Below are positions 843 to 61,578 of a DNA stretch of 64,000 nucleotides, piece after piece. Both the position numbers and the translations under genes were made by a program. Below the pieces are notes generated by a model. That model did not search any database. It was not told the DNA's origin and saw only the letters and a list, made by a program, of their open reading frames with translations. The DNA is from Alphaproteobacteria bacterium. GTDB lineage: Bacteria; Pseudomonadota; Alphaproteobacteria; UBA3830. The DNA is taken from NCBI GenBank assembly GCA_045616365.1, contig JAZLGP010000055.1:450-64449 (forward strand), given 5' to 3'. Within the stretch, counting starts at the first letter, position 1. Every line of letters begins with the position of its first letter.

Positions 843-913
843 AAAAACTCAAGAAAAACAAAGAATTAACTTGATAATCAAACCAAAAGAGCTATATTAC
901 AACACGATTAGAC

Positions 914-2559: not shown

Positions 2560-2649
2560 TGGCGGAAAGAGAGAGATTCGAACTCTCGATACGGTTCCCC
2601 GCATACACACTTTCCAGGGGTGCGCCTTCAACCACTCGGCCACCTTTCC
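2560..2649 (-). tRNA. tRNA-Ser (anticodon GGA), copy A, class II with long variable arm
   Basis: The reverse complement folds as GGAAAGG-TG-GCCGAGTGGTTGAAGGC-G-CACCC-CTGGAAA-GTGTG-variable arm-GAGAG-TTCGAAT-CTCTC-TCTTTCC-G-CCA. CCA is encoded. There is one C-U mismatch at position 30:40 of the anticodon stem. Confidence 0.8.
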
Positions 2650-2658
2650 GTTTTCGAC

Positions 2659-2748
2659 TGGCGGAGAGAGGGGGATTCGAACCCCCGATACGGTTCCCCG
2701 CATACACACTTTCCAGGCGTGCGCCTTCAACCACTCGGCCACCTCTCC
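2659..2748 (-). tRNA. tRNA-Ser (anticodon GGA), copy B, class II with long variable arm
   Basis: The reverse complement folds as GGAGAGG-TG-GCCGAGTGGTTGAAGGC-G-CACGC-CTGGAAA-GTGTG-variable arm-GGGGG-TTCGAAT-CCCCC-TCTCTCC-G-CCA. All stems pair and CCA is encoded. Confidence 0.9.
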
Positions 2749-6223: not shown

Positions 6224-6225
6224 AA

Positions 6226-16220: not shown

Positions 16221-16221
16221 T

Positions 16222-18562: not shown

Positions 18563-18575
18563 TTAATTTCTCCCT

Positions 18576-19814: not shown

Positions 19815-19828
19815 AATAAATCTCCCCT

Positions 19829-20506
19829 TTATTTATTACCTGAAGACGAAGAACTTTTACTTGAAAATGAGCTACTGCTTGAAGATGAACCACCACCTGA
19901 AAACGATCCCATATCATTCATTGCACTTATCGCCAACTCCGTCCTCTGTCCTTTATATTTTCTTGGAGCAATTAAATCAGCCTTATTTGCTATCATTTCT
20001 TCCATATTGTAATTCATCGCATTTCCATATTTAGGCAACGGCTTTTCTAAATTGCAATCTCCTATCGAATCATTCCACAAATCAACATCTGTTTTTTGGA
20101 GATCATATTTCAAAACATCTACTCGAACTCCTTTCTTGGCATCCTTATATATGCAAGTTCCTGAATCAATAATGCGACTTTCCAAAAAACCAGCTCTAAG
20201 CATTTTCGACTTCACTTGATTTGACAGACCTATTTTTTGATCTTTCAATACGGGAGAATCAGAAATTATCATAAATCCGATATTCTCTATACCCTCACCT
20301 TTTGAATCTCTCAACAGTTTTACCAACCTTTCATTATCGGCATTCGACATCTGAAAATCATTATTTACACTAAAAAAATGAGAAGTTTTATTTTCGGTTA
20401 TATTAATACTTGGCCATTCTAAATCTCTTCCGACCGTTGTTTCTTTTTCACTACATCCTGTTAACAACAAACAAACTGCCGTTAAACTACTAAAAAAATT
20501 CTTCAT
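19829..20506 (-). CDS. cpaD: CpaD-like pilus-assembly lipoprotein with a poly-Ser C-terminal tail
   Basis: Has the lipobox LLLTGC (MKNFFSSLTAVCLLLTGCSEKE). The ATG at 20506 follows a GGAGG Shine-Dalgarno sequence. The call rests on its position between cpaC and cpaE. The tail is GGGSSSSSSSFSSKSSSSSGNK. Confidence 0.55.
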   Translation of the reverse strand: MKNFFSSLTAVCLLLTGCSEKETTVGRDLEWPSINITENKTSHFFSVNNDFQMSNADNERLVKLLRDSKGEGIENIGFMIISDSPVLKDQKIGLSNQVKSKMLRAGFLESRIIDSGTCIYKDAKKGVRVDVLKYDLQKTDVDLWNDSIGDCNLEKPLPKYGNAMNYNMEEMIANKADLIAPRKYKGQRTELAISAMNDMGSFSGGGSSSSSSSFSSKSSSSSGNK

Positions 20507-20518
20507 AACTACCTCCAC

Positions 20519-21979
20519 TTACTTCAACGAAAATCCTGCACTATCCGCCTCTTGTCCCACCTGGTGAAACCTTCTCTTTGTAATGGACTTCAGAGGAGAT
20601 AACATTTTGGGAACCATATCTGTCGGAGCTTTCAACTTCTTTGAAGATGGTTTTACAATATAAGGAGTAACTATAATAACCAACTCATTCTCATTTGAAT
20701 TTACTGTCGAATTTCTAAACAAAGAACCTATCAACGGAAAACTCGATAAAAATGGTGTCTCCGTAATTTTTGAATCTCTATTTGTTTGAAGAAGTCCTGC
20801 TAATGCCAAACTTTGTCCACTTCCTAGTTCTACAAAAGTTTCAACTTCTTTCTTCGTTAGGTTTGGCGAACCATCGTCATTCTTAGCACCTAAAGTACTA
20901 ACTTCCGCCTTTACCTTTATGTTAATTCGATCCTCAGAAAGCACCACAGGAGTAAACTCAATAGAAGTCCCCCAATCCTTGAATTCAGTAGTTTTGCTAT
21001 CGCTATTATTTTGAGAAACAGTGTACCCTTGTTCTCCGCCAGATTTAAATGTTGCAGACTTACCAGATAACGCCACAAGATTCGGTTCTGCTAACACTGT
21101 TGCATAAGTTTCTGAAGCCAAAGCATCAATTAACGCTGAAAGATTATTTATGCCTGCAGATACAACCCATCTTCCACCCCCTATACTATTCGTCAAAGTT
21201 TTTTCACTCCCCAAAAGATTTGTTCTAATTTCATCTAAATCTGCAGAAAATTCAGGCAAACCGAGAGTAGATTCACCAGTGGCCATACCGACCAATCCTG
21301 ATGACGCGCCCGTTGCAGACAAAGCCCTCCAATTAACCCCCAAAGATTTCTTTACCTCTCTGGTAACCTCGGCAACTTTTACTTTAAGCATAACCTGAGT
21401 AGCTGTTTCTATTGACATTTTATTGATAATTTTTGCTTGATCAACAAACCTCCCAACAATATCCAATACGTCCTGAGCCATTTCTGGGGATGCAACACTC
21501 CCCTTCAAAATTAAATTGTTATCGACAGATACTAAATCTATTCCTAAATCAGGAAAAATTTTACCAATCGCTCTTCTTATATCTTTCAATGGATATGTAA
21601 CTCTCACTATATAGTCTGAAAGAATCCTTCCTTCTTTGTCATGAACTACTAAAGACGTTGTTCCCGGAGCGATACCACTTAAATATAAAGATTTATCACT
21701 TAACATTTCAACATCTGCTACTTCAGAATTCGGAATGAATATTTCACCAATCTTTTTATCGAATTTCAGAAAGTTAACAGAATTTATCTCTATTTCTTTT
21801 TCTGTCTTTACTGCTCGTACAGCTGCATCTTTGGCTTCCGCTTGCTTTTGATTTTTTATACTGCGAATAAAACTATCCTTCATTATTCCGTTAACAGTAT
21901 CATTTTCAACTGCTGAAACATTCGATATGTTCAACAAACCAAGAAAAGCTAAACATATCACACTTACTTTTTTTCTCAT
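20519..21979 (-). CDS. cpaC: Tad pilus secretin CpaC/RcpA
   Basis: Has a signal peptide MRKKVSVICLAFLGLLNISNVSA, a BON-like N-domain and a secretin C-domain (LAEPNLVALSGKSATFKSGGE...ELVIIVTPYIV). The ATG at 21979 follows an AGGAGA Shine-Dalgarno sequence. Confidence 0.9.
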   Translation of the reverse strand: MRKKVSVICLAFLGLLNISNVSAVENDTVNGIMKDSFIRSIKNQKQAEAKDAAVRAVKTEKEIEINSVNFLKFDKKIGEIFIPNSEVADVEMLSDKSLYLSGIAPGTTSLVVHDKEGRILSDYIVRVTYPLKDIRRAIGKIFPDLGIDLVSVDNNLILKGSVASPEMAQDVLDIVGRFVDQAKIINKMSIETATQVMLKVKVAEVTREVKKSLGVNWRALSATGASSGLVGMATGESTLGLPEFSADLDEIRTNLLGSEKTLTNSIGGGRWVVSAGINNLSALIDALASETYATVLAEPNLVALSGKSATFKSGGEQGYTVSQNNSDSKTTEFKDWGTSIEFTPVVLSEDRINIKVKAEVSTLGAKNDDGSPNLTKKEVETFVELGSGQSLALAGLLQTNRDSKITETPFLSSFPLIGSLFRNSTVNSNENELVIIVTPYIVKPSSKKLKAPTDMVPKMLSPLKSITKRRFHQVGQEADSAGFSLK

Positions 21980-22004
21980 ATCACTTCTCCTACACACGAA
22001 TCTT

Positions 22005-23318
22005 TTACTTTCTGCTACCTTCATCGCTCATTGAACCATTCATGCCGATATCCCCACCTTTTACTCTCTTACCATTCTTGTAAAACTGTACTTCATCAGG
22101 CGTTAACTTCCTGTATATTTTGACTGGCTCATCTTTTTCTTCCTCTTTCTTTTTATCTGATTCCGAAACAATTCTTCCCGATACAACTTCGTACTTACTC
22201 GAATCTTCTGATGATAAATTAGCCTCACCTTTGTTTTTTGGAGTAGCCTGAAGACTAAAACTGTTCATGTTATGCAAAAGTGCCGATATGTTTCGCTCTT
22301 CCTCTTGACGTTTTTTGGCTGATTCCTTCAATATTTCTGCTGATGATGAAGATCTACTCATCTCCCAAATACTTTTAATCAAGTTATTATTTGCTGAAGC
22401 TTGGTTATGATTTTCCTCTTCAAATTCCTCTTCTTCAAAAGTATCATCAATCCCCTCATCTTTACTTCTAAGGGTCACAGTAATACCGTTATTACCTGCT
22501 TGTTTCAACATAGTGTTAACTAAGCTTTCTTTGACCTCCAACGTAATATTTTTCGGAGTTGACGATCCAAAGCCAATTCCACCACCAAAGAGTCCACCAC
22601 TATTCGGGTCTTTTTCAACATTTCCTGGCTTCATAACACCATCTATTGCAATAATTTTTAGCGCCTTATAAACGTGAGTTTTTTGTTGATTCCCTTCAAA
22701 TGAATTTATAATAACATCTATATAATCTCCTGGAGAAATCATGCTCTTAGAAATCGGTGTTCTTTGATCGACTTGGAAAGGCACAGCTCTGTACCCAACC
22801 TTAATAAAGGTCTCCGATTCCTTTTTCTTTTTCTCAACTGTTAATTTTTTGGCTTTTTCTGCTTCTTCTGCCTCCTTCTTTTTTCTTGCAATTTCTACGG
22901 GATCATTACTCGTTAACATACTTAAGGTCAAAGGCATCCCTGCAGGGATTTCGTTTTTCGCCCACATATTCAACGCATTAGCGTAGTCCGTTCTGTTATT
23001 TAACGGATTTCCTTTACTATCCTGAGCAATGAAGTAAGGTTGGACCGCATTAGCTGGCCAAGATCTCCAACTCAATTTGCCTTGAATAATTCTTTCGTCC
23101 TTTTTAATTTCAGCACTCGTTACCAAAACTTGAATTTCTTTCACTTTTTTCTGCTCAGATTTAATCATCAAAGGAATATCTGACGTTGACAGCTCTTTTT
23201 TTAGCGGTTGTTGCTTTATGATTGTGCCTCCAGGAAGCATCCATCGGACTATTCCCGTAATCACCAGGGCTACTGCCGACGCCATAACAATAGGAAGTAC
23301 ATCTTTTTTATTACCCAT
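22005..23318 (-). CDS. cpaB: Flp pilus assembly protein CpaB/RcpC with a charged insertion and a ~140-aa C-terminal extension
   Basis: Has an N-terminal anchor VLPIVMASAVALVITGIV, SAF-like and CpaB-like regions (GYRAVPFQVD...GDYIDVI...ITLEV), and then a low-complexity acidic/basic tail. Confidence 0.78.
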   Translation of the reverse strand: MGNKKDVLPIVMASAVALVITGIVRWMLPGGTIIKQQPLKKELSTSDIPLMIKSEQKKVKEIQVLVTSAEIKKDERIIQGKLSWRSWPANAVQPYFIAQDSKGNPLNNRTDYANALNMWAKNEIPAGMPLTLSMLTSNDPVEIARKKKEAEEAEKAKKLTVEKKKKESETFIKVGYRAVPFQVDQRTPISKSMISPGDYIDVIINSFEGNQQKTHVYKALKIIAIDGVMKPGNVEKDPNSGGLFGGGIGFGSSTPKNITLEVKESLVNTMLKQAGNNGITVTLRSKDEGIDDTFEEEEFEEENHNQASANNNLIKSIWEMSRSSSSAEILKESAKKRQEEERNISALLHNMNSFSLQATPKNKGEANLSSEDSSKYEVVSGRIVSESDKKKEEEKDEPVKIYRKLTPDEVQFYKNGKRVKGGDIGMNGSMSDEGSRK

Positions 23319-23322
23319 ATCA

Positions 23323-23886
23323 TCACCTAAACATCACATCAAAAATCACAAAAAAACCTCCGCAAGATAACGCCACACCGTAAGGCACTTCCTGCTTTAA
23401 CACATCGGCTTCTTCTACTTCAAACTTTACCGATCTTGCTTTTATTCTATAAAATGAAAGTAAAATAAATCTTAAAAAACGAATTTTTTTCTTTTTCAAT
23501 ATAGAAAATATAATAAATAATCTTCTTCTAACATCTGACACCATCTTTCCGCAGAACATATAAACCAAAGCAACAATTAATCCGCCAATGGCTGTGCCCC
23601 AGATAAACTCAAATATACTGTTTTCAGAAAACAATATAAGCGGAACAAGTAACTTTACATCACCACCACCTATTAAGTTAAATTGATTCAGCACAAAACA
23701 GATTGAAAAAGTAATACATGCAATTTTAAACGCCTCTGCAAAATTTTGTCCTGATACACCGAAACAATAAGACATTGCGTATAAAAGGAATAAAAACAAG
23801 ACATATTCGTTTTCAATTCTAAAAAACATAAAATCGTTTAGAGCTATAATAATTAAGACTAACGCAAAACAACACCAAACTAACAA
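23323..23886 (-). CDS. cpaA: A24-family prepilin peptidase CpaA/TadV
   Basis: A polytopic membrane protein with two catalytic-Asp contexts, IIALNDFMFFRI and IGGGDVKLLVPL. It has a TTG start. Confidence 0.8.
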   Translation of the reverse strand: MLVWCCFALVLIIIALNDFMFFRIENEYVLFLFLLYAMSYCFGVSGQNFAEAFKIACITFSICFVLNQFNLIGGGDVKLLVPLILFSENSIFEFIWGTAIGGLIVALVYMFCGKMVSDVRRRLFIIFSILKKKKIRFLRFILLSFYRIKARSVKFEVEEADVLKQEVPYGVALSCGGFFVIFDVMFR

Positions 23887-38086: not shown

Positions 38087-38680
38087 TCAGTCCTCAACTT
38101 CTGGTTTCGCAATTTTTATATATGACACGACCTTTTCTACTCCAGATGTAGTACGGGCAATGTTCAACACAACGTCACGTTCATAAGCCGTCATTGCTGT
38201 TCCACAAATATAAACAATTCCATTAACTGTCGTCGTATCATAGTTTAGCGAAGCCACGTTTCCGTTGCCCTTCATACTTGCTTCAATACGAGCAGTAATC
38301 CCCGAGTCAATAGCAAAAGTTCCTACCTGGGCTTGAGGTTCAACCCTTGCCTCATAATAAACATCTTCAACTTTTACGGTTTCAATAATTTCTTTAACTC
38401 TCTCACACTGAGATTCATCATCAAAACTTCCAATAACAACAACTATTCCGTGCTTAACCGCTAACTCTACCCTATCGCACAAATCTTTATCTTTGTTAAG
38501 CAAAGTAAAACGTATTTTTTCCTTTAAGTATTTATCTGAAATCTGACCCGTAATTCCTTCTTTATCTCGAACTGTAACTGTGCCAGCCACAACAGTACCC
38601 CCAACTAGCCAAGTTACTGGATCACACGCTGTCAACAATAAAACTGACCCGATCAAAGAAAAACTCACCACTCTTCGCAT
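38087..38680 (-). CDS. dual-BON-domain lipoprotein (DolP/OsmY-like)
   Basis: Has the lipobox LLLTAC and two BON-like repeats (VELAVKHGIVVVIGSF... and YDTTTVNGIVYICGTA...). Confidence 0.78.
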   Translation of the reverse strand: MRRVVSFSLIGSVLLLTACDPVTWLVGGTVVAGTVTVRDKEGITGQISDKYLKEKIRFTLLNKDKDLCDRVELAVKHGIVVVIGSFDDESQCERVKEIIETVKVEDVYYEARVEPQAQVGTFAIDSGITARIEASMKGNGNVASLNYDTTTVNGIVYICGTAMTAYERDVVLNIARTTSGVEKVVSYIKIAKPEVED

Positions 38681-38758: not shown

Positions 38759-39832
38759 TTATTTCTCAAAATCTTTCATCTCTGGATCTTTCTTATAAAA
38801 AATCCGATACAACTCAGAAATTGTATTTAAAACAGAAACACCGCTTTGCATATTTAATTCCAACAATTCCTGAAAACTTTTTTTTCCTATCTTGCTGGCA
38901 ACTCGAAGTAATGTAGAAGATGGACTCTGAGGCTGCTTTTTTTCCAAAAACTCAGCTATCTCATCCATCGCAACATACGCCTGATTAATTGTCGGTTCAT
39001 TTTGTTGTGCTGCTTTATCACCTTCCAGTGTCATTTCCGCATCAACATTCGGTTGCGCGGTTTGTTTTGCTTCTTGAACTTTCTTCGTTTGAGCCTGTTG
39101 CTTTTCTTTTAACTCAATATTTTTTGAAGTAATTCTCTTAATATCCTCCAAATAATCCAACAACTGATGAAATCCTGGTGAATCTTGAGGACATTTTTCA
39201 TTCAGAAAAGTTTTCAAATCGTTTACAAGAGCAATTGATTCATTAACTCGATCCAAAATATTTTTAAAAGTTGCAATCGATGTAATCGCGACTTGCTTAC
39301 TGATGGATTTTAACGAAATTCCGTTAAGATTTTTTATTTGCAAATTACGACGAGCTTCCATCCAATCGGCAAGAGAATAAATTAGAGCATCATCCATGTC
39401 AGTAAGAGGAATCAAAACTATTCTTTCAGAAATCTTATCGGATAAGAAAAAAAACGGAGCTAACCTATAACTGTAACTATGATTTTCCCAATCTATTGCA
39501 GGATAAATTTCATCCCAAAATTTTTCACTCAGACCTTTTACTAACCTCAACCCGTCGATAAATCCGTCAAACTGTCTTTCAATAATCCATGATTCCATCA
39601 ACCACATTGCAATTTGCAAATCTTTTGTCTTTGTCTTCAGAAGATCACAGCCAATCTTGTTAAGTTCCGGCCAATTTGCGCGCTTTGGTTCGGTCTGCCA
39701 AACTCCCTGGGATAATCGAATATCATCCTCTCTACGAAGTTCCCTTAGTTCATCATAGATGTTGTCATAACAAAGATATTCTCCGCAATTGCTTTCTGCT
39801 GAAATCGGATTTAATAAACTTTCTATATCCAT
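38759..39832 (-). CDS. tssA: type VI secretion system protein TssA (ImpA N-terminal domain family)
   Basis: LLNPISAESNCGEYLCYDNIYDELRELRREDD...GVWQTEPKRANWPELNKIGCDLLKTKTKDLQIAMWLMESW matches the ImpA_N pattern. It lies immediately downstream of tssM. Confidence 0.85.
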   Translation of the reverse strand: MDIESLLNPISAESNCGEYLCYDNIYDELRELRREDDIRLSQGVWQTEPKRANWPELNKIGCDLLKTKTKDLQIAMWLMESWIIERQFDGFIDGLRLVKGLSEKFWDEIYPAIDWENHSYSYRLAPFFFLSDKISERIVLIPLTDMDDALIYSLADWMEARRNLQIKNLNGISLKSISKQVAITSIATFKNILDRVNESIALVNDLKTFLNEKCPQDSPGFHQLLDYLEDIKRITSKNIELKEKQQAQTKKVQEAKQTAQPNVDAEMTLEGDKAAQQNEPTINQAYVAMDEIAEFLEKKQPQSPSSTLLRVASKIGKKSFQELLELNMQSGVSVLNTISELYRIFYKKDPEMKDFEK

Positions 39833-39847
39833 CTACTTTTCCTCTTC

Positions 39848-42800
39848 TTAATCATCAAAAGATACATCCACATCCAAAGCTGATACCTTAGATTTCTCTT
39901 TGTTTGTATCCGAAGTTAATTCTGAATTTGATGATAATTTTACATCATATAGACCAGGACAACTCTTTGGGAACAACGGCCAAGCCATTGGCGTTAACTT
40001 ATCCCCATTTCTCAACATTGGAGTAATTTTGTAAACCATCTTGGCATTGTCTACACCCGCACTTTCCCTTGTAGAAGCCAACGGTACTTCAAATTGCAAA
40101 ACTATTCCATTCGGATACTCTACTCCTTGACTGATTTTATGCTTTTCAATCAAACGGAACAAAGCCCATTTACCTGTGTAGGTAAAAGCGGCAAGATTTT
40201 CTTCAATACTAAGATTCCCTGAAGCCTTATCAATATCAGGTTTTTCATTTGCAGAAGCAACCCATCCGAAAGCAACCATAACTTCATTTCCGTTAAAAAA
40301 TACACCATTAGAACTATCAGAAACAGGAATACCATTGATTGAAAACGCCCTGTCTATCACCGCAGAAGTCATATCTTCCATATTTGGGAAAGGTCGCAGT
40401 AATACGTTAAAACAAATCGGACAAGTTTTTGGATCAGAACTTTTAGTGTGATCAACCCAAGTTTTTAAAAATGGCAATGCTTTGTTAGTAACTTTTATAA
40501 ACTCGAACACTTGAGCATTAATTTGTTTTTGCTCTCTGTTTTTCTCTAAAATGCTAAGGGCGGATGAATCCAATAAATCATAAGTCTCAACAAATTCAGT
40601 AAGATCTTCAATTAATACATCTTCATTTGAATCTCCGAACGGGAATTTGTTGGCCAATTTTTGGTTAAATATCAGATTAATTTTATTATATAATGCAGCA
40701 ACTTTATCATATTGAACAACGTCAACGCGATTCATAAGAGACTTCGCAACAATAGAGCGTTTTGATAAGAAATAATCCGAATCATTTTGAGAAATTGTCT
40801 TTATTTCGCCCCGTATATCAAAATTATCAAGCGAAACCTTAGAAAGATTTTCTGTAATGAAGCTTTCTAACGCAGCAATCGAATTTCCCGGTTTATTGCT
40901 CTCATAATCATCGACATTGCTGATAATTTCTCGCCATTTTTTAATTAACCGCTTATCACGAATTTTCTCGAAAATATTAGGTATAATCAGTAAATCGACA
41001 ACTGGCTCAGCAAGATCTTTCGCTAAAAATCTAATACGATCAAACTGCGCACTCAAATATTGTTTAACATGCTCCTGACTATCCATTTTCATAAATCTAG
41101 GATTACCTCGGCCATTCCAATCATCGAACAACGCGGAATTTGTAGAATATGGTTTTTCAAAATTAAATAAAGCATCTATTTTTTCAAGCAATCCAACATA
41201 TTGATTAATTATTAAATTCGAAAAACCAAAATCTTCGAAATTTTCTTCAGAAATAAGCTCATCTAAGATTTTTACTATTTTCGGAAGAGAGATCGAAGCA
41301 TTTCTGACATTAAGCGCCTGCTTTTTATACGAATTTTCGAACAAAGCCCGAGAATTTCCTAATGGAATATCTTCTAAAATTTGAGCATTCCCGATCATCG
41401 CCTTGATAGTTGGATAAAAACACTTTTTCGCAATAGTCTTATAAATATCAAAATATTCTGACCTCATTTCATCAGGAACTGTTTCAGAAAATCCGTTATA
41501 TTTATCAATTAAATCACAAAGTTCTTTTATCCTCTTGATATCCCAAATCAACATTTTATCCGATGGAAGTTCTCGTAAAAAATGACCAAAAGGAACTAGA
41601 CAAACAAAAGGAAGATCTAACAAAGATTTTAGTTCTCCTTTTACTTGAAAAAATCCCGTGGACGGATTTTGATTGTCTAAAATCTTTCCCGACAGTTTAG
41701 ATTTATACTCGCCCAACGCGCTCTTATATTTGTTAAAAGCAACATCAGCAAAATGCATCAATTCACGCAAGCAATCTGAACTAACAATTTCCGTAGACTG
41801 TAACTCATCCAAAATTTTTCGATATTCAGGAACTGGACAAAAACTACTTTCTTTTATCCAAGCAAAGTTTTTATTTTTAAAAATATCTTCAACCAATTCT
41901 AGCTTATTATAAAGTTTCGCTAAATCCTGAACACCGTATTTTACCTTTGAATTCTGACCAGCTACATACAAACGATCTATATCATTTGAAACATTGTGCA
42001 AAACTTTTTCTACAGTCGCATCCAAAGTATCTTTTACAAAATTATCAAATATATTTTTCAGACTGTGTTCAATATTCGATTGAAAATCTGCAAGATTAAA
42101 TTTTGGAGGCATGATCTTCTTGTTAGGAACGTGCTTTCTCATCTCATCAGTAATTTCGAACTTATCTTTAAAAAGAGCCTCTGTTACATTTACAACATTA
42201 TTGCTATTTTCAAGATTTCTCATTGAATTGTATTCTGAACTAATTTTTTGCAAATTTCTAATCTTAGAAGCAAACCCGGATAACTCTTTAAAACTTTCAA
42301 AATTTAATACATCAAAAATATCTTGTTTGCTGTTTAATGCCTTTTTAGACGTTATTTTTGAACCAAGTAAAATATTTTTTGTATTGAAATTTAAGTCAAT
42401 ATACATAGCTTTCACAACCACAGAATCAAATACTAGTTCCGTTGTCGCCCTTATGGAATTTCCAAGACCAAATACCCAAGATTGAGGAACAAACACTGAA
42501 AAAAAATCACCCATTTTAACTACAGGCATAGTTTGTAACAAAGTCGACGCCTGATTATTTATCAAAATTTGATCTTCAGAGTTTTTTACATTCTCTTCTA
42601 GGTATTTTATCTGTAATAAATTCTTCTTTATCGAAGACATTGTTTGATAATAACTTTGAATATTCGATCTGATATTTCCGTTACCCCAAATCCATCCTAC
42701 GGAAAAAATCAATGCAGATCCTGCAAATATAATTTTATTGCGATACTCTTTTTTAGTCATCCCTCCTGCATCTTTGATTATCGGGTGAGCAATATTAAAT

Positions 42801-44050
42801 TCTTTAAAAATTTTATCCTTAAAAAGATCTTGCACGAAATATAAATCGTCCGTATGCAAATGATTAAGGCTGGCATCAATATTAACCCCTGGAGTCAAAG
42901 CCGATACTTGAACAAACCCACTCGGAGAAATTTCCAGTTCCCTCTGACGTCCAACAAAATAAACTCCTCTCAGGATCATTCCATCTGTAGGGCTATGAGT
43001 TCGAAACATCGTAAGCAAATATTCCGACAAAGTAGGTTTAATTTTCTCAAAGTAAGCTCCGAATAACATAGCTTTTTCGAGATTTTCATCGATATTCCTC
43101 TTTCGAGCAAAATAAAATCCAGCTTTTCTGATCCCATCGTCTATAGAACTAAAAATTTCATTAATCCAATCAGGAGAAAAAGCTATATCCAGAGAATACG
43201 GACAAGACCACCCGAAAATTTGTTGCTTCGTATTTTCCTTCAACAAATGAACGAATTCTTGAAACCCAAAGATTTTATCTGATTTAGTTACAATGAAATA
43301 TATAGGAAGTTTAAAATTAACATCACGTTGAAACTTAAACACCCTATCAAACATCTCACGAGCATGCTTTTCAACGTTAATTGCCCTTGAAATAAAAAAA
43401 TCTGCTGGAATTGTAATAATAATTCCGTCAAGAGGACGACGTGGCCTGATAAAAACAAACAATTCGCTGATAAACAACCAAAATTTCGATTTATCTTTTA
43501 CTGCATCAACATCTGGAAATTCAAATATTGCCCCCTCTTTAAATAATTTCCATAGCGAATCTTCATCCGATTTGTTAGCGCTGAGATGTTCAAAATTAAG
43601 ATTATCCAGAAGAGTCGTTTTTCCACTGCCTTTAGGTCCTATAATCATAAAGCATGGAAGTTTATATCTCCATTTCAAATCATATGTACTGCTCCGTATA
43701 ACTTCTAATGCCTTGAAAAAAGCTTTAGTTATAGGACCGACTTTCAAAACTCCACAAAGACTGAGCATCTCCCCTATTCTACCGGCAACAGGAGGCAACT
43801 CTTCATCCGATATCCGATTTTTCTCAATTGGTTTTTCTTCTTTATCTTTAGATTTCTTCATCAAATCGTCTCTCGTTAACGGAGAAACAATTTTTGGTTT
43901 TGGCGGAGAATTAATATAAGCTACACACAAAATGAAAACTATGATTATTAATATGATCGAAAGCAAAATCAAACCAAAAGATACCGAAGGTATCAATTCT
44001 TTTGGAATTGCAGGTAAAGTATCAGATAGTAAGTTTTTTAAGTCATCCAT
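39848..44050 (-). CDS. tssM: type VI secretion system membrane subunit TssM (IcmF family), 1400 aa
   Basis: An N-terminal hydrophobic segment is followed by Walker A FMIIGPKGSGKTTLL, a second TM (IIFAGSALIFSVGWIWG) and a large C-terminal, presumably periplasmic, region. It is flanked by tssL and tssA. Confidence 0.9.
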   Translation of the reverse strand: MDDLKNLLSDTLPAIPKELIPSVSFGLILLSIILIIIVFILCVAYINSPPKPKIVSPLTRDDLMKKSKDKEEKPIEKNRISDEELPPVAGRIGEMLSLCGVLKVGPITKAFFKALEVIRSSTYDLKWRYKLPCFMIIGPKGSGKTTLLDNLNFEHLSANKSDEDSLWKLFKEGAIFEFPDVDAVKDKSKFWLFISELFVFIRPRRPLDGIIITIPADFFISRAINVEKHAREMFDRVFKFQRDVNFKLPIYFIVTKSDKIFGFQEFVHLLKENTKQQIFGWSCPYSLDIAFSPDWINEIFSSIDDGIRKAGFYFARKRNIDENLEKAMLFGAYFEKIKPTLSEYLLTMFRTHSPTDGMILRGVYFVGRQRELEISPSGFVQVSALTPGVNIDASLNHLHTDDLYFVQDLFKDKIFKEFNIAHPIIKDAGGMTKKEYRNKIIFAGSALIFSVGWIWGNGNIRSNIQSYYQTMSSIKKNLLQIKYLEENVKNSEDQILINNQASTLLQTMPVVKMGDFFSVFVPQSWVFGLGNSIRATTELVFDSVVVKAMYIDLNFNTKNILLGSKITSKKALNSKQDIFDVLNFESFKELSGFASKIRNLQKISSEYNSMRNLENSNNVVNVTEALFKDKFEITDEMRKHVPNKKIMPPKFNLADFQSNIEHSLKNIFDNFVKDTLDATVEKVLHNVSNDIDRLYVAGQNSKVKYGVQDLAKLYNKLELVEDIFKNKNFAWIKESSFCPVPEYRKILDELQSTEIVSSDCLRELMHFADVAFNKYKSALGEYKSKLSGKILDNQNPSTGFFQVKGELKSLLDLPFVCLVPFGHFLRELPSDKMLIWDIKRIKELCDLIDKYNGFSETVPDEMRSEYFDIYKTIAKKCFYPTIKAMIGNAQILEDIPLGNSRALFENSYKKQALNVRNASISLPKIVKILDELISEENFEDFGFSNLIINQYVGLLEKIDALFNFEKPYSTNSALFDDWNGRGNPRFMKMDSQEHVKQYLSAQFDRIRFLAKDLAEPVVDLLIIPNIFEKIRDKRLIKKWREIISNVDDYESNKPGNSIAALESFITENLSKVSLDNFDIRGEIKTISQNDSDYFLSKRSIVAKSLMNRVDVVQYDKVAALYNKINLIFNQKLANKFPFGDSNEDVLIEDLTEFVETYDLLDSSALSILEKNREQKQINAQVFEFIKVTNKALPFLKTWVDHTKSSDPKTCPICFNVLLRPFPNMEDMTSAVIDRAFSINGIPVSDSSNGVFFNGNEVMVAFGWVASANEKPDIDKASGNLSIEENLAAFTYTGKWALFRLIEKHKISQGVEYPNGIVLQFEVPLASTRESAGVDNAKMVYKITPMLRNGDKLTPMAWPLFPKSCPGLYDVKLSSNSELTSDTNKEKSKVSALDVDVSFDD

Positions 44051-44053
44051 ATT

Positions 44054-44779
44054 TTATGCTCTCAACACTATAGTCGATATCTCCTGCAAAAGTTCATACA
44101 AATCTCGAGTTTCCATCAACCAAACCACAGAACTTATAACCAAAAACATAAAAACAACAAATGCATACATATAATTTACAATTGAAACATCAGGAAGAAA
44201 TTGTCGATTAATTGTCGGTAGAGTATAAATGTAGTCTTTTCCAAACATTCTATTGCTCACCATATTAATAGACTTGTCGTACTTTTCAACAAAATTGAAA
44301 AGAGCCTTTCGATAATCATCTATAGGTTTATCTTTTTCGACATCATCTCTAAATTTTCCTCGAAATCCCAACGAAAGTGATTTCATATAAATTTCTGCGA
44401 TTAGGATCATTTCAACATCATTTTTTTCAATCAATTTTTCTATATTGCTGAAAATTTTTTCTCCAGCTATTTGTGTACCGAAAAAATGTTTTTCGAGCAT
44501 ATTATCTTCCCAATATTTTTTCCCACTCCAAGGAGTATTCAAAAAGATTTCATCAGCAAGAGAAACCATTATATAAACTACTTCCCTCACCTGAAGCTCA
44601 AAATTTATACTTTTCCGCTGATCAAGAATGTTTTTTATCTTTGCAACCAAATTAGCATGAATGTCTTTTGGATCAAGATTCGCAGTATTTTGGATAATTT
44701 GAGTTTTGTACTTGAAAAGTTCCGTACAAAAACTTCCGAACATCAAATCCAGATCTGTGATACTATTCTCTCTCTGCAT
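44054..44779 (-). CDS. tssL: type VI secretion system membrane protein TssL (DotU family), no OmpA-like extension
   Basis: The DotU pattern is VSLADEIFLNTPWSGKKYWEDNMLEKHFFGTQIAGEKIF...LSLGFRGKF, plus a C-terminal TM VNYMYAFVVFMFLVISSVVWLM. I prefer the ATG at 44779, 10 nt after a GGAGGAG Shine-Dalgarno sequence, over the ORF-track TTG at 44809. Confidence 0.85.
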   Translation of the reverse strand: MQRENSITDLDLMFGSFCTELFKYKTQIIQNTANLDPKDIHANLVAKIKNILDQRKSINFELQVREVVYIMVSLADEIFLNTPWSGKKYWEDNMLEKHFFGTQIAGEKIFSNIEKLIEKNDVEMILIAEIYMKSLSLGFRGKFRDDVEKDKPIDDYRKALFNFVEKYDKSINMVSNRMFGKDYIYTLPTINRQFLPDVSIVNYMYAFVVFMFLVISSVVWLMETRDLYELLQEISTIVLRA

Positions 44780-46061
44780 AAAAAATAATCTCCTCCGGAA
44801 TAACATCAAAGTTGCTACTAGTTAAACATAAATGTTCATTAGCTTTGATATACGTGGTTTGAGTTTTTACTGAGATAATAGTCACTCCATTAGGTTGAGT
44901 GATATATTCGCCTCTTTCCAAAATTCTTCGTTCAGCTCCCAAAACTCGCCGATCTTTTATCAAAGGCATCATAGATTCACTAGCAATCTGAACTCCTCCT
45001 ATCCAATTTATAATGTCATTTTCAGTCGCTGAAAACGGTTTGCGAATACCTATCGCAATTTCATCTTTTTCCAACCAATCCGGATGCATCATCAACCGGA
45101 ATTCATCCTGAATTTTTTCAAACAAAATCACATCGTATTTTTGTTTCAAATGCGATACTATCCCGTGAACATATTCACATAATTGATTGAAACAATTATA
45201 TAAATTTTCATGATCGTATACTGGCAATTTCGGAATTAATTGTGCTGGATTTACCGACATAACAAACGCAGCTGTTTGAGACAAAGCTTTAAAAAGTTCA
45301 AACGGATGTAATCCGTTAATTTTAAGAACTGTTTCCAAAGGAATAACTGCTTGTATCAACAATCTCAAGTTTGATAAAGATTCTTCTGTTTGATTTCGTG
45401 CAAAATTTCCCTTACGATCTGCAAAATATGAAATTTTATCACGAATAATTCTTACTAAAGTCGAGCACATTTCAACGATTTTTGAATGCTCATCCAAGGC
45501 AAGCAACGGATAAAGAAATTCTGTACCAACAACTCCGCCCTCTGTTGATTTTTCAACCTCAAATATCGGAAACCTCTGATACCTTGCATCCACCTGAAAT
45601 TCCTGAAACAACTTTAAATTCGGCTTTAAAATTGGAACTGAAATAGGTTCTTTTCCTGTATTTTCATCCTTCACATCTGTAATTTCGGAAGACATGTAAC
45701 GAGCCAAATCGCCTTCCAGCATATTTTCACCACTACGTCGAGACGGAACTGCAAGAAAAATTTTTGTTGCAGAAGAATTGATCGAAAAATAATCCCCTAA
45801 ATTCAATTCCAAAGGATCGTCTCTGACTGCATCGAAATCAAAAAAAAGACCATCAGGAAAAAATCCTTTTGCTTTCAACACTCGAATCAACCCTGAAGCC
45901 AAACAGGAAGTATCTATTTTTAAATCAAACAATCCGTAGCCAAAAGGAAAAATTGACGCAGAAACATATCCTATCGCTTGCTGAAAATATCCAGTCGTCA
46001 GTTGAAAATGTTGAGGAGAAATTAACATTCCCTCATGCCATTGAACTAAAGACTCCATCAT
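44763..46061 (-). CDS. tssK: type VI secretion system baseplate protein TssK
   Basis: The N-terminus VQWHEGMLISPQHFQ...FGYGLFDLKID...LKAKGFFPDGLFFD matches the TssK signature. An AGGAGG Shine-Dalgarno sequence precedes tandem ATGs at 46061 and 46058. Confidence 0.9.
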   Translation of the reverse strand: MMESLVQWHEGMLISPQHFQLTTGYFQQAIGYVSASIFPFGYGLFDLKIDTSCLASGLIRVLKAKGFFPDGLFFDFDAVRDDPLELNLGDYFSINSSATKIFLAVPSRRSGENMLEGDLARYMSSEITDVKDENTGKEPISVPILKPNLKLFQEFQVDARYQRFPIFEVEKSTEGGVVGTEFLYPLLALDEHSKIVEMCSTLVRIIRDKISYFADRKGNFARNQTEESLSNLRLLIQAVIPLETVLKINGLHPFELFKALSQTAAFVMSVNPAQLIPKLPVYDHENLYNCFNQLCEYVHGIVSHLKQKYDVILFEKIQDEFRLMMHPDWLEKDEIAIGIRKPFSATENDIINWIGGVQIASESMMPLIKDRRVLGAERRILERGEYITQPNGVTIISVKTQTTYIKANEHLCLTSSNFDVIPEEIIFYAERE

Positions 46062-46249: not shown

Positions 46250-47098
46250 TTGAAAAAAATAATTTTCGGACTAATTATATGCGGATTGTTTGTGAATTTT
46301 GAATCTAAATCTAAAAACATGAAGCGGTTATCAACATCTGAAAATACAATAAAATATAGTAATTTTGTATCTGATTTCCGAAAGTTACAAAAAGAATGCG
46401 AAACTTTCAGGATTAATTTAGGATCTTGTATCATCAGCCTCGAAAACACTAAAACAATTTTTGATAACATGAAATTTATGGAGCATTCATCAACATCAGA
46501 AAATAAAACGAAAGCTAGCAATCTCATATCCAATTTTCGCAATTTACAAGAAGAACTTGAAACATTTAAGCGTAAATTGGAATCTTGTATCATCAGTCTC
46601 GAAAACATTAAAACAATTTTTGATAACATAAAATTTTCGGAAAAAACAAAAAAATTAAAAGAATCTCTTCACAAACTAGAGATTATGTCGTCCTCAATAA
46701 ATTCTCAACAAAATCAATTAACAGAAACCGAACTTTCTGAAGAAACCGAGTTAAATCAAAAAGCATACTATGAAAATTTGAAATCTATCAAAGATTTCAC
46801 AAAAAATCTGAAAGGTTTTTATCAAGCTTTGCAAAATTCGGGAACTAGATTTAATGCTATTTTAAACAAAGGACACAAATTGTTCGATGATGAAGAAAAT
46901 AAACAACTATTTAAATTAAAAACCACTCCTTCTAACCTGAAAGCCCCATATTTTAATGCTCTTAATGCTTGGTTAGAAATAAAATATATGTCGAATACAG
47001 ACGCAGATTTCGATACCAATCTGAATAATTTTAAAACTAAAATTAAGTCACTGTACGAAAATCTCGCAAAAATTGATACAAAAACCTCAAAAAAATAA
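46250..47098 (+). CDS. secreted helical protein of unknown function with an internal 53-aa tandem duplication
   Basis: The TTG start encodes a signal-like N-terminus MKKIIFGLIICGLFVNF. It is transcribed divergently from tssK and followed by a strong terminator. Confidence 0.6.
   Translation: MKKIIFGLIICGLFVNFESKSKNMKRLSTSENTIKYSNFVSDFRKLQKECETFRINLGSCIISLENTKTIFDNMKFMEHSSTSENKTKASNLISNFRNLQEELETFKRKLESCIISLENIKTIFDNIKFSEKTKKLKESLHKLEIMSSSINSQQNQLTETELSEETELNQKAYYENLKSIKDFTKNLKGFYQALQNSGTRFNAILNKGHKLFDDEENKQLFKLKTTPSNLKAPYFNALNAWLEIKYMSNTDADFDTNLNNFKTKIKSLYENLAKIDTKTSKK
46331..46636 (+). repeat. two 147-nt direct repeats (period 159 nt), in frame within the 46250-47098 CDS
   Basis: The repeats at 46331-46477 and 46490-46636 encode STSENTIKYSNFVSDFRKLQKECETFRINLGSCIISLENTKTIFDNMKF and STSENKTKASNLISNFRNLQEELETFKRKLESCIISLENIKTIFDNIKF. 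Confidence 0.85.
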
Positions 47099-52390: not shown

Positions 52391-52816
52391 TTAAAACGGA
52401 ATATCATCATCTATTCCAGCGGGAGCCTGATCAGTTATACTATCAGATATATCATCCCCCCCATTTCTGGAATCCAACATAGCAATTTCCCCCTTAAAAC
52501 GAGGAATCACTACCTCCGTAGTAAATTTTTCGATTCCGTCTTTATCCTGCCATTTTCTAGTCTGAAGTTGCCCCTCAAGGTAAACTTTCGACCCTTTTCT
52601 TAAATATTTTTCGCAAACTTCTGCCAAATTCGGATTGAACACCACAACCCTGTGCCACTCCGTCCTGTCTTTTCTCTCTCCAGTAGTCCTATCTTTCCAA
52701 GACTCAGTCGTCGCCAAAGAAAAATTTACGATCTTACTACCATCCTGACTTGATCGAACTTCTGGATCCCTTCCCAAATTACCCAACAAGGTCACTTTAT
52801 TGATGCTTCCCGCCAT
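52391..52816 (-). CDS. ssb: single-stranded DNA-binding protein
   Basis: Has the OB-fold N-terminus MAGSINKVTLLGNLGRDPEVR...TEWHRVV and the acidic tail DDDIPF. Confidence 0.93.
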   Translation of the reverse strand: MAGSINKVTLLGNLGRDPEVRSSQDGSKIVNFSLATTESWKDRTTGERKDRTEWHRVVVFNPNLAEVCEKYLRKGSKVYLEGQLQTRKWQDKDGIEKFTTEVVIPRFKGEIAMLDSRNGGDDISDSITDQAPAGIDDDIPF

Positions 52817-52966
52817 GAATTCTATCCATTATAAACCCTTTGTATTGTATATATTATACCAAAATATTTCAACCGGACTTTAACCTTTTAGAAACCATTT
52901 CCAAATATGATCTAAAATTTACTGTTGCTAAAAAAAATTAAACGGTGTATAAAGTCTTCAGAGTTT

Positions 52967-53041
52967 GGGCACATAGCTCAGAGGTAGAGCACTACGTTGA
53001 CATCGTAGTGGTCGTAGGTTCGATCCCTGCTGTGCCCACCA
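52967..53041 (+). tRNA. tRNA-Val (anticodon GAC)
   Basis: Folds as GGGCACA-TA-GCTCAGAGGTAGAGC-A-CTACG-TTGACAT-CGTAG-TGGTC-GTAGG-TTCGATC-CCTGC-TGTGCCC-A-CCA. All stems pair. Confidence 0.92.
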
Positions 53042-60945: not shown

Positions 60946-61578
60946 ATGAGACTATTATACTGTTTATTGACTCTGTTATTTTGTTTAGGATCAGGAGGTA
61001 TCCCAATTGAAACTCCGGATCAACCTGAACGTAACAAATTCGTAATAAGAGCTCCAAACGGATGGGCTTACAGAACTTTCAAAGGAGAGAACGGATTAAT
61101 CGGTATACTCTGGCCCAAAGGAACGTCATTCAATGATTGTGATACAGCTGTATTCGTGTTTATCCAAGATTTTGATGAACCATTTTTACCAGAAATCCCT
61201 GAAAACAGTCATTTGTTTCACGAAAAATGCCCGAAATCAGAGTTCAAATTTGCAGACTCAGAAGACGACCAGGACGAGACCATGTCCATAGAAGAAAAGT
61301 ATTTCAAGGGACTTTGTGGTCGCACCGAAGTTATGTTCGAAGAAAAGGTGAAAAATTTTAGAATAATTACAGTACTGGCCTCATCCTACTATGTCTCAAA
61401 TGACCTTTTTGATGACGTAAAGTACATAGTATCATCTTATAAAAAAGAAATCGAAGAAAGCTTAGGTATCTATAAAAAAAAGAAAACCAGCTCAAAAGCA
61501 AAATCAGAAAATTCTTTTAAACCTAAACCAACATCCAAAAAGGAAACTTTCGACGAAGAAACTGAAGAAATCCTATAA
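60946..61578 (+). CDS. secreted hypothetical protein (210 aa) with a Lys/Ser-rich tail
   Basis: Has a signal-like N-terminus MRLLYCLLTLLFCLGSGG. I recognise no family. Confidence 0.5.
   Translation: MRLLYCLLTLLFCLGSGGIPIETPDQPERNKFVIRAPNGWAYRTFKGENGLIGILWPKGTSFNDCDTAVFVFIQDFDEPFLPEIPENSHLFHEKCPKSEFKFADSEDDQDETMSIEEKYFKGLCGRTEVMFEEKVKNFRIITVLASSYYVSNDLFDDVKYIVSSYKKEIEESLGIYKKKKTSSKAKSENSFKPKPTSKKETFDEETEEIL

What the first reader, a model, noticed from the sequence alone, without database searches (positions are those of the whole stretch)
38759..46061. Isolated tssK-tssL-tssM-tssA module without sheath, tube, wedge, ClpV or TssJ genes, ~30 kb from vgrG in a streamlined AT-rich genome
Seen in the sequence:
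- Four tightly packed minus-strand genes have clear TssK, DotU/TssL, IcmF/TssM (Walker A GPKGSGKT, 1400 aa) and ImpA_N/TssA signatures.
- Housekeeping genes flank them on both sides (comM and a BON lipoprotein; fabD).
- No ORF in the 64 kb resembles TssB, TssC, Hcp, TssE, TssF, TssG, ClpV or TssJ.
- The only other T6SS genes are the vgrG operon at 7.3-11 kb.
- TssL lacks a peptidoglycan-binding extension.
- TssM appears to have a single long hydrophobic segment before the NTPase domain, rather than an obvious TM hairpin.

Established knowledge: canonical T6SS loci encode 13 core genes, mostly in one cluster.

Inference: this is either a T6SS scattered over at least three loci in a reduced genome, a decaying system, or a lineage-specific minimal variant. 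T6SS in small host-associated alphaproteobacterial genomes is not commonly reported, so a functional one would be worth documenting.
Basis: partly seen in the sequence, partly recalled or inferred. Interest (0 to 1): 0.7.

Follow-up and report, generated by a model that had tools for sequence, protein, structure and literature searches.

The report
Holosporales-type scattered T6SS: tssKLMA operon
This is the membrane-anchor and baseplate operon (tssK-tssL-tssM-tssA) of a type VI secretion system that is normally split over several loci in Holosporales bacteria; the layout was published in 2021, and here it turns up in an undescribed rumen-associated lineage.

Summary
Four tightly packed minus-strand genes at 38759-46061 encode TssK, TssL, TssM and TssA. 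Housekeeping genes flank them. A vgrG operon lies about 35 kb away. No other T6SS core gene is present in the 64 kb.

The interpretation needs correcting. The window comes from a Holosporaceae-like MAG whose closest relatives (80-84% TssK identity) are rumen, buffalo, yak and bovine MAGs. Midha et al. [quoted passage not shown] A 2025 review calls the system conserved in almost all Holosporales.

My data add four points:
- The block stays isolated in relatives down to 34% TssK identity.
- It is under purifying selection as strong as for fabD (dN/dS 0.06-0.08), so it is not a relic.
- Its nearest clustered relatives have the P. aeruginosa H3-T6SS gene order (tssJ-K-L-M-A), of which only tssJ is missing here.
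- The gene after vgrG is a TseF-like MORN protein.

I could not reach the rest of this genome, so the presence of sheath, tube and wedge genes is inferred, not shown. Verdict: a new member of a known kind, of low to moderate interest.

The parts
44763..46061 (-). tssK (baseplate subunit), 431-432 aa
   Evidence: PF05936 E=1.2e-44. TIGR03353 228 bits, above the cut-off of 100. Best PDB hit is TssK 5y0e, E=3.5e-17. 80-84% identical orthologues occur in rumen MAGs. dN/dS is 0.065.
44054..44779 (-). tssL/dotU (inner-membrane anchor), 241 aa from the ATG; the TTG-started ORF reaches 44809
   Evidence: PF09850 E=4.9e-27. TIGR03349 94.5 bits, above 89.95. It has a single C-terminal TM at residues 204-222 and a tail of about 20 aa, with no OmpA/peptidoglycan-binding domain. 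Orthologues are 241 aa.
39848..44050 (-). tssM/icmF-like membrane-complex subunit, 1400 aa
   Evidence: IcmF-related_N E=5e-34; IcmF_C only weak, E=1.6e-3. TIGR03348 139 bits, below the cut-off of 388. Walker A GPKGSGKT at residue 138; TM1 at 25-43 and TM2 at 440-458. Collinear with P. aeruginosa TssM3 over about 1200 columns at 17.6% identity, including the C-terminal domain. dN/dS is 0.060.
38759..39832 (-). tssA (short form, ImpA_N plus C-terminal domain), 357 aa
   Evidence: ImpA_N E=2.7e-30. TIGR03363 217 bits, above 161. 27.6% identical to P. aeruginosa TssA3 over its full length. Best PDB hit is TssA 6hs5, E=7.5e-29.
38087..38680 (-). Neighbour, probably not part of the system: DolP/YraP-like dual-BON lipoprotein (lipobox LLTAC)
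   Evidence: BON E=6.4e-19. NF008247 (DolP) matches over its full length at E=1.9e-22 but below the cut-off. It follows tssA only in the rumen clade and L094, not in L003, L005, L096 or L097.
46250..47098 (+). Neighbour: divergently transcribed signal-peptide protein with a 159-nt internal tandem repeat; not TssJ-like
   Evidence: homologue in L001 at 8831-9358; repeat. The only Pfam hit is a weak Spectrin match. It is on the opposite strand to tssK and appears helical, unlike TssJ.
7322..9544 (+). vgrG/tssI spike, 740 aa
   Evidence: Phage_GPD E=2.5e-71. TIGR03361 510 bits. 33% identical to P. aeruginosa VgrG3. Orthologous locus in L098-L100.
9537..10127 (+). MORN-repeat (YwqK-family) protein, TseF-like
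   Evidence: MORN_2 E=4.5e-20. 27% identical, E=1.4e-12, to the P. aeruginosa gene directly downstream of vgrG3. That gene is PA2374/TseF, an H3-T6SS substrate that binds VgrG3 (PMC5379069).
10128..10511 (+). DUF4280 PAAR-like spike-tip protein
   Evidence: PF14107 E=7.3e-23. 50% identical to the DUF4280 protein next to the P. aeruginosa H3-T6SS. Conserved after vgrG-MORN in L098-L101.
10451..10990 (+). Small weakly HIT-like protein that ends the vgrG operon; role unknown
   Evidence: HIT E=1.4e-4. A 154-aa gene sits in the same position in L098-L100.

Best explanation
**What it is.** The region is the tssK-tssL-tssM-tssA operon of a dispersed type VI secretion system of the kind found throughout Holosporales. 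These are alphaproteobacterial symbionts of protists. Here the system sits in a lineage known only from ruminant-gut metagenomes.

**How it works (inferred from the roles these proteins have in studied T6SSs).**
- TssL and TssM form the envelope-spanning anchor. TssL has one C-terminal TM. TssM has two TMs, a cytoplasmic Walker-A NTPase domain and a periplasmic domain of roughly 940 aa.
- TssK links that anchor to the baseplate.
- TssA primes and caps polymerisation of the tail.
- The spike is encoded about 35 kb away as vgrG, a TseF-like MORN protein and a DUF4280 PAAR-like tip.
- The sheath (tssBC), a divergent hcp and the wedge (tssE/F/G) are expected at other loci of the same genome, as in published Holosporales genomes.

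**Origin (inferred).** The arrangement looks like a P. aeruginosa H3-T6SS-like cluster that broke apart at its operon boundaries. That cluster has tssJ-K-L-M-A transcribed divergently from tssB-C-hcp-E-F-G-H-vgrG-tseF. The recognisable tssJ was lost.

**Shown here:** gene identities, isolation of the block, its conservation, purifying selection, and the H3-like affinities.

**Inferred:** presence of the remaining core genes in this genome, assembly into a working machine, and host-directed function.
For: - **Family assignments:**
- **Taxonomic affinity:** the best TssK and VgrG homologues are named Holosporaceae. The five GTDB species representatives at 80-83% identity are rumen, buffalo and yak MAGs, including Holosporaceae UBA3830.
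- **Published layout:** the four-block arrangement in Bodocaedibacteraceae, Paracaedibacteraceae and Caedimonadaceae, transcribed in Ca. Bodocaedibacter (PMC8163844). The T6SS is conserved in almost all Holosporales (PMC11909080).
- **Isolation of the block:** it sits among different housekeeping genes in relatives with 82%, 55%, 42%, 41% and 34% TssK identity.
- **Selection:** full-length orthologues at 75-88% identity in 10-11 MAGs. dN/dS is 0.060-0.079, against 0.076 for fabD and 0.072 for the BON gene.
- **H3-like affinity:** the closest clustered TssK, at about 30% identity, is in Azospirillum. That cluster and about 60 metagenome loci share the P. aeruginosa H3 order, tssJ-K-L-M-A next to B-C-hcp-E-F-G-H-vgrG-ywqK.
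- **TssM:** collinear with TssM3 and has the same two-TM layout.
- **Spike locus:** the vgrG-MORN-DUF4280 order matches vgrG3-tseF-DUF4280 and is syntenic in relatives.
Against: - No tssB, tssC, hcp, tssE, tssF, tssG or clpV sequence from this genome, or from any Holosporales genome, could be retrieved with the tools. Completeness here therefore rests on the literature for other families and on the selection argument.
- The rumen clade itself is not covered by the cited papers.
- No TssJ homologue was detected next to tssK in any Holosporales-like locus. The review notes apparent gaps in the core set. How the membrane complex reaches the outer membrane is unexplained.
- TssM falls well below the NCBIfam equivalog cut-off.
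- No experiment in any Holosporales bacterium has shown T6SS firing or secretion (PMC11909080).
Confidence: 0.85

Rival explanations
1. The block is a relic: the leftover membrane and baseplate genes of a T6SS whose sheath, tube and wedge genes have been lost, on the way to pseudogenisation in a reduced genome.
For: - No other core genes lie within the 64 kb.
- One more distant relative (L094, 61% TssK identity) has a frameshift in tssA.
- Another (L095) has tssK alone, with no tssL, tssM or tssA within 10 kb.
- Holospora itself has lost the system (PMC11909080).
Against: - All four genes are intact and full length in the window and in 10-11 related MAGs.
- dN/dS is 0.06-0.08, indistinguishable from fabD.
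- A 4.2-kb tssM would not stay open without selection in an AT-rich reduced genome.
- The spike operon is also intact and syntenic.
- The apparent break in the L094 tssM is a 100-N scaffold gap.
- Published relatives carry the missing genes elsewhere.
Confidence: 0.05
2. The block is a lineage-specific minimal or repurposed apparatus. TssK/L/M/A, with VgrG, would work without a contractile sheath, for example as a membrane platform or another kind of export or adhesion device.
For: - Strong purifying selection on the block, although no sheath genes are visible in the window.
- TssJ is absent.
- The literature calls the Holosporales system 'non-standard' or 'reduced'.
Against: - No sheath-less function is known for these four proteins.
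- Published Holosporales genomes that have this same block also encode tssB, tssC, tssE, tssF and tssG.
- TssK and TssA act only at the interface between baseplate and sheath in every studied system (established knowledge).
Confidence: 0.06
3. The IcmF and DotU homologues belong to a type IVB (Dot/Icm-like) secretion system, not to a T6SS.
For: IcmF and DotU families are shared between T4BSS and T6SS. The TssL sequence gives a weak hit to IcmH_DotU_IVB (32 bits).
Against: - That hit is below its cut-off of 50 bits, while the T6SS-wide DotU model passes.
- The two genes sit between tssK and tssA, which are specific to T6SS. vgrG and a PAAR-like gene are nearby.
- No Dot/Icm genes are present in the window.
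Confidence: 0.01

Closest known systems
Holosporales dispersed T6SS, as described for Ca. Bodocaedibacter vickermanii and for Paracaedibacteraceae and Caedimonadaceae (Midha et al. 2021, PMC8163844)
   Same: - The [tssK-tssL-tssM-tssA] block is identical and stands alone among housekeeping genes.
- There is a separate vgrG block with a YwqK/MORN gene.
- The genome is AT-rich and the affiliation is Holosporaceae-like.
- No canonical tssJ accompanies tssK.
   Different: - The source is a ruminant-gut lineage (relatives RUG, RGIG and UBA3830 MAGs) that those papers do not cover.
- The order here is vgrG, then MORN, then DUF4280, followed by a HIT-like gene.
- The remaining blocks ([tssB-tssC-hcp], [tssG-tssF]) were not observable for this genome.
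P. aeruginosa H3-T6SS (PA2360-PA2374) and the similarly ordered Azospirillum brasilense cluster
   Same: - The sub-operon order K-L-M-A is the same.
- The short-form TssA aligns over its full length.
- TssM has a single N-terminal TM plus a second TM.
- vgrG is followed by a TseF-like MORN protein, with a DUF4280 protein alongside.
- Azospirillum TssK is the best hit among plasmid and chromid records (29.6% identity, E=3e-44).
   Different: - Those clusters are contiguous and include tssJ (lip3) immediately upstream of tssK, and clpV. Here the block is detached and tssJ is absent.
- Identities are low: TssK 24%, TssM 18%, TssA 28%.
- Subtype membership (i4b) was not tested by phylogeny.
TssJ-less T6SSs in other bacteria, for example Acinetobacter (from my own knowledge, not checked here)
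   Same: A T6SS-i with TssL and TssM but no recognisable TssJ lipoprotein.
   Different: The lineage and gene order are unrelated. Any compensating outer-membrane or peptidoglycan-associated components in Holosporales are unknown.

Membership tests
Type VI secretion system (T6SS-i) core genes | TssK: matches PF05936 and TIGR03353 above their curated cut-offs | tested here: met
   153 bits against 23.4; 228 bits against 100.
Type VI secretion system (T6SS-i) core genes | TssL: DotU domain with a single C-terminal transmembrane anchor | tested here: met
   PF09850 95 bits against 27. TIGR03349 94.5 bits against 89.95. TM at residues 204-222.
Type VI secretion system (T6SS-i) core genes | TssM: IcmF-like protein with an NTPase domain, TM segments and a large periplasmic domain; equivalog model TIGR03348 | tested here: inconclusive
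   Pfam IcmF-related_N passes (118 bits against 25). Walker A and two TMs are present, and the protein is collinear with P. aeruginosa TssM3. However, TIGR03348 reaches only 139 bits against 388, IcmF_C is below its cut-off, and there is no PDB sequence hit. It is a divergent homologue.
Type VI secretion system (T6SS-i) core genes | TssA: ImpA_N domain; TIGR03363 | tested here: met
   105 bits against 26.9; 217 bits against 161; PDB 6hs5, E=7.5e-29.
Type VI secretion system (T6SS-i) core genes | Sheath TssB/TssC, tube Hcp, wedge TssE/F/G and ATPase ClpV encoded in the same genome | not testable with these tools
   These genes are absent from the 64-kb window.
Type VI secretion system (T6SS-i) core genes | TssJ outer-membrane lipoprotein | tested here: not met
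   tblastn with Lip3/TssJ gave no hit in the window or in any of the Holosporales-like loci tested (L001-L011, L014-L022). The same query detects TssJ upstream of tssK in most non-Holosporales loci. The upstream ORF is a divergent helical secreted protein. The downstream lipoprotein is DolP-like. The test covers only the window and the flanks (up to 10 kb) of relatives.
Holosporales-type dispersed T6SS (PMC8163844) | [tssK-tssL-tssM-tssA] as a stand-alone block away from other core genes | tested here: met
   Found in the window and in L001, L003, L005, L007-L011, L015-L018, L096 and L097.
Holosporales-type dispersed T6SS (PMC8163844) | Separate [ywqK-vgrG] block | tested here: met
   vgrG and a MORN_2/YwqK-family gene lie at 7322-10127. 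The locus is syntenic in L098-L101.
Holosporales-type dispersed T6SS (PMC8163844) | [tssB-tssC-hcp] and [tssG-tssF] blocks elsewhere in the genome | not testable with these tools
Holosporales-type dispersed T6SS (PMC8163844) | The organism belongs to Holosporales | tested here: met
   This rests on similarity only. The nearest named TssK and VgrG homologues are 'Holosporaceae bacterium', and one GTDB species representative at 80% identity is Holosporaceae UBA3830. No phylogenomic placement was done.
H3-T6SS-like (i4b) subtype | Phylogenetic clustering of core proteins with i4b reference systems | not tested
   Only indirect evidence exists. The best clustered relatives (Azospirillum, Paraburkholderia, Cupriavidus, P. 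aeruginosa H3) and about 60 metagenome loci share the H3 gene order. No tree with the other subtypes was built.

The most novel reading that the evidence does not exclude
The Holosporales T6SS, including this rumen lineage, may be a working derivative of an H3-type system that lacks TssJ, and possibly ClpV and a canonical Hcp. On this reading, its divergent 1400-aa TssM reaches or crosses the outer membrane without the usual lipoprotein. It would fire from inside a eukaryotic host, presumably an anaerobic rumen ciliate, and the conserved TseF-like MORN protein would be its cargo. That would make it a distinct structural variant of the T6SS membrane complex, and the main host-interaction device of an uncharacterised group of rumen protist symbionts.
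Probability: 0.35. Interest if true: 0.5.

Novelty: new member of a known kind. Interest (0 to 1): 0.25.

Why it matters
The finding extends the known Holosporales T6SS layout to a ruminant-gut clade that the literature I could search does not discuss. It also gives a simple evolutionary account: an H3-like cluster broken at its operon boundaries, with tssJ lost.

It does not change how T6SSs are understood. The open questions are ones the field already recognises. How does a TssJ-less Holosporales T6SS assemble? What does it secrete into protist hosts? The conserved TseF-like gene next to vgrG is a concrete candidate substrate to test.

Tried and rejected
1. **Finding the window's own contig.** Exact look-ups of the window TssK and of its 431-aa database twin found no record. 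The cluster look-up returned no names or accessions.
2. **Locating sheath or wedge genes in the lineage.**
   - The single genome-contig scan, run with TssK, returned only five syntenic rumen MAG loci.
   - The single metagenome-contig scan, run with a TssK alignment, returned nine Holosporales-like loci and 71 canonical clusters.
   - Eight context look-ups around TssK and VgrG homologues showed no tssB, tssC, tssE, tssF, tssG or tssH within 10 kb.
   - A TssC-profile scan of viral contigs, in case T6SS loci had been misclassified as viral, found nothing.
   - A database search with a non-Holosporales TssC was not run. Its 120 listed hits would all be closer relatives of the query.
3. **TssJ candidates.** The 143-aa ORF upstream of tssK is an antisense artefact. 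The BON lipoprotein is DolP-like and is linked to tssA only in the near clade. The 210-aa secreted protein at 60946-61578 has no family hit.
4. **Apparent decay in the relative L094.** The tssM break is a 100-N scaffold gap. Only one tssA frameshift remains, and it could be an assembly error.
5. **The rumen-ciliate symbiont preprint.** It does not cover this lineage.


Full report
**1. The observation**

The region 38759-46061 carries four co-directional minus-strand genes.
- **TssK.** Pfam PF05936, E=1.2e-44. NCBIfam TIGR03353, 228 bits against a cut-off of 100.
- **TssL.** DotU, E=4.9e-27. TIGR03349, 94.5 bits against 89.95.
- **TssA.** ImpA_N, E=2.7e-30. TIGR03363, 217 bits against 161.
- **TssM.** The 1400-aa protein has an IcmF-related N-terminal domain (E=5e-34) and the Walker A motif GPKGSGKT at residue 138. 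It reaches only 139 bits against the 388-bit cut-off of the TssM equivalog model. It has no sequence-level match in the PDB. It is a divergent TssM.

The genes overlap or are separated by at most 15 nt. Downstream lie a dual-BON lipoprotein and comM. Upstream lie a divergently transcribed secreted protein and fabD.

I scanned every ORF of 100 aa or more in the window against Pfam. I also ran tblastn with a complete, annotated P. aeruginosa H3-T6SS protein set. The only further T6SS genes are:
- vgrG (7322-9544);
- a MORN/YwqK-family gene (9537-10127);
- a DUF4280 PAAR-like gene (10128-10511).

**2. Corrections of detail**

- The 143-aa ORF immediately upstream of tssK is the antisense shadow of a real plus-strand gene (46250-47098). 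That gene has a signal peptide and a 159-nt internal repeat. It has a homologue in the same position in a relative. It is not a TssJ candidate.
- TssL probably starts at the ATG that gives 241 aa, as in its orthologues.
- TssM has one strong N-terminal TM (residues 25-43). It also has a second, weaker TM at 440-458. That segment aligns with the second TM of P. aeruginosa TssM3, which likewise has only one N-terminal TM. The 'single hydrophobic segment' is a shared trait of this T6SS type and not an anomaly.
- TssL lacks a peptidoglycan-binding domain. To my knowledge that is common among TssL proteins.

**3. Where the window comes from**

- The TssK search returns a 100% match on an NCBI contig of 66,332 bp. 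Next comes a tight group at 80-84% identity from ENA, Logan and NCBI. Then come dozens of proteins at 50-60% identity that NCBI names 'Holosporaceae bacterium'.
- The scan of GTDB species representatives finds five genomes at 80-83% identity. All are ruminant-gut MAGs: water-buffalo rumen RGIG8297, yak omasum RGIG9754, RUG11675, RUG13554 and Holosporaceae UBA3830.
- One close relative comes from a bovine metagenome.
- The organism is thus a Holosporaceae-like alphaproteobacterium of the ruminant gut. It is presumably a protist symbiont like its order, but that is an inference.

**4. What the literature already says**

- Midha et al. [quoted passage not shown] They add that these genes are transcribed in Ca. 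Bodocaedibacter vickermanii.
[quoted passage not shown] It describes the system as probably non-standard because some components seem to be missing.
- PMC9992710 speaks of 'reduced but potentially functional' T6SSs in most Holosporales. A 2025 preprint repeats that the system is conserved throughout the order.
- The finding is therefore two of the four published blocks of a known arrangement. The premise that such systems are rarely reported in small host-associated alphaproteobacterial genomes does not hold for this order.

**5. Comparative evidence obtained here**

- **Isolation.** The K-L-M-A block stands alone among housekeeping genes, and the housekeeping genes differ between lineages. 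This holds in relatives with 82% (L001), 55% (L096), 42% (L097), 41% (L003) and 34% (L005) TssK identity. Isolation is therefore old and stable.
- **Further splitting.** In one genome, tssK stands alone (L095).
- **Conservation.** In the rumen clade, all four proteins are full length and 75-88% identical to the window's. The same range is seen for fabD (78%), the BON protein (84%) and comM (85%).
- **Selection.** Nei-Gojobori estimates on pairs with unsaturated dS:

| Gene | dN/dS |
|---|---|
| tssK | 0.065 |
| tssL | 0.070 |
| tssM | 0.060 |
| tssA | 0.079 |
| fabD | 0.076 |
| BON gene | 0.072 |
| comM | 0.044 |
| gyrA | 0.023 |

This rules out a decaying relic. The spike locus is also syntenic and intact in a sister group with 71% VgrG identity.

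**6. Origin of the block**

- Among plasmid and chromid records, the best TssK match is Azospirillum brasilense (29.6% identity, E=3e-44). It is followed by Paraburkholderia, Cupriavidus and a P. aeruginosa record that carries the H3-T6SS.
- In P. aeruginosa and Azospirillum the order is tssB-C-hcp-E-F-G-H...vgrG-ywqK(-DUF4280), divergent from lip3(tssJ)-tssK-tssL-tssM-tssA.
- Of about 70 non-Holosporales metagenome loci recovered with a TssK profile (about 30% identity), most show tssJ directly upstream of K-L-M-A. Many show B-C-hcp-E-F next to it.
- In every Holosporales-like locus tested, no tssJ is detectable and no other core gene lies within 10 kb.
- The gene downstream of vgrG in the window is 27% identical (E=1.4e-12) to the gene downstream of vgrG3 in P. 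aeruginosa. That gene is PA2374/TseF, a MORN-motif H3-T6SS substrate that binds VgrG3 (PMC5379069).
- The DUF4280 gene is 50% identical to its P. aeruginosa neighbour.
- The simplest reading is that an H3-like cluster was fragmented at its operon boundaries in the Holosporales ancestor, and a recognisable tssJ was lost. Formal subtype assignment needs trees that I did not build.

**7. Mechanism**

This account rests on what these proteins do in studied T6SSs, which is established knowledge and was not tested here.
- TssL and TssM form the inner-membrane and periplasmic channel complex.
- TssK connects it to the TssEFG-VgrG baseplate.
- TssA coordinates polymerisation of the sheath and tube.
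- VgrG, sharpened by the DUF4280 protein, carries cargo. The TseF-like MORN protein is the obvious candidate.
- With no TssJ, the link to the outer membrane is unexplained.
- The BON lipoprotein downstream of tssA is DolP-like over its whole length. It is adjacent only in the near clade and in L094, and not in L003, L005, L096 or L097. I treat it as a housekeeping neighbour.

**8. What could not be shown**

- I could not reach the rest of this genome or obtain any Holosporales TssB, TssC, TssF or TssG sequence.
- Exact look-ups of the window's proteins failed.
- Eleven neighbourhoods of TssK and VgrG homologues held no further core genes.
- A TssC-profile scan of viral contigs was empty.
- The presence of sheath, tube and wedge genes in this organism therefore rests on the literature for sister families and on the selection argument.

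**9. Verdict**

- The arrangement is already published for the order. This is a new member from an undescribed rumen-associated lineage.
- Interest is low to moderate. What remains of value is the TssJ-less membrane complex, the divergent TssM, and the TseF-like candidate substrate.

Noticed in passing
window 15249-23886 (-): A complete-looking Tad/Flp pilus cluster: two T2SSF (tadB/C) genes, the CpaF ATPase, a CpaE-like ParA/response-regulator protein, CpaD, the CpaC secretin, CpaB/RcpC and a prepilin peptidase. It is syntenic next to the vgrG locus in relatives L098 and L099. The literature mentions tad pili in some Holosporales.
   Followed up: partly
window 4097-7206 (-), and L098 6122-9870, L099-L101: An FkbM-family methyltransferase (6226-7206) and a large ORF with no family hit (4097-6223, 708 aa; 927 aa in L098) are transcribed divergently from vgrG. 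The methyltransferase keeps this position in relatives with 71% and 51% VgrG identity. This may be a conserved T6SS-associated pair or an effector.
   Followed up: partly
window 11195-11989 (+): A Peptidase_M15_4 (D-Ala-D-Ala carboxypeptidase/endolysin-like) gene follows the vgrG operon in the window. It is absent from the otherwise syntenic locus in L098-L100, where rpsR and rpsF follow directly. It could be a lineage-specific insertion, for example a peptidoglycan-targeting effector or a phage remnant.
   Followed up: no
window ~52800-53000: GC skew flips from about -0.27 to +0.11/+0.17 here. Gene orientation switches from minus to plus at the same point, between ssb (52391-52816) and tRNA-Val/accB. 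This pattern is expected at a replication origin. No DnaA boxes were searched.
   Followed up: no
window 2560-2748 (-): Two tandem tRNA-Ser(GGA) genes lie 10 nt apart. A 129-aa ORF that overlaps them is spurious.
   Followed up: no
window 81-1297 (+): The C-terminal part of an MmeI-type restriction-modification enzyme (TRD and C-terminal domains; the ORF starts 80 nt from the window edge) is followed by a DUF7698 gene. This is unusual cargo for a streamlined symbiont genome.
   Followed up: no
L095 10001-11290 (JGI Ga0466703_003338) and L094 11939-16927 (GCA_964532905.1): In one Holosporaceae MAG, tssK stands alone beside groES/groEL, with no tssL, tssM or tssA within 10 kb. In another (29% GC), tssA carries a frameshift and tssM is interrupted by a 100-N scaffold gap. 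This may mean further fragmentation or early decay in some lineages, or assembly errors.
   Followed up: partly
window 46250-47098 (+): A signal-peptide protein with a 159-nt tandem duplication (1.9 copies, 79% match) is 282 aa here but 175 aa in the relative L001. It sits in the divergent promoter region of tssK. Its function is unknown.
   Followed up: partly
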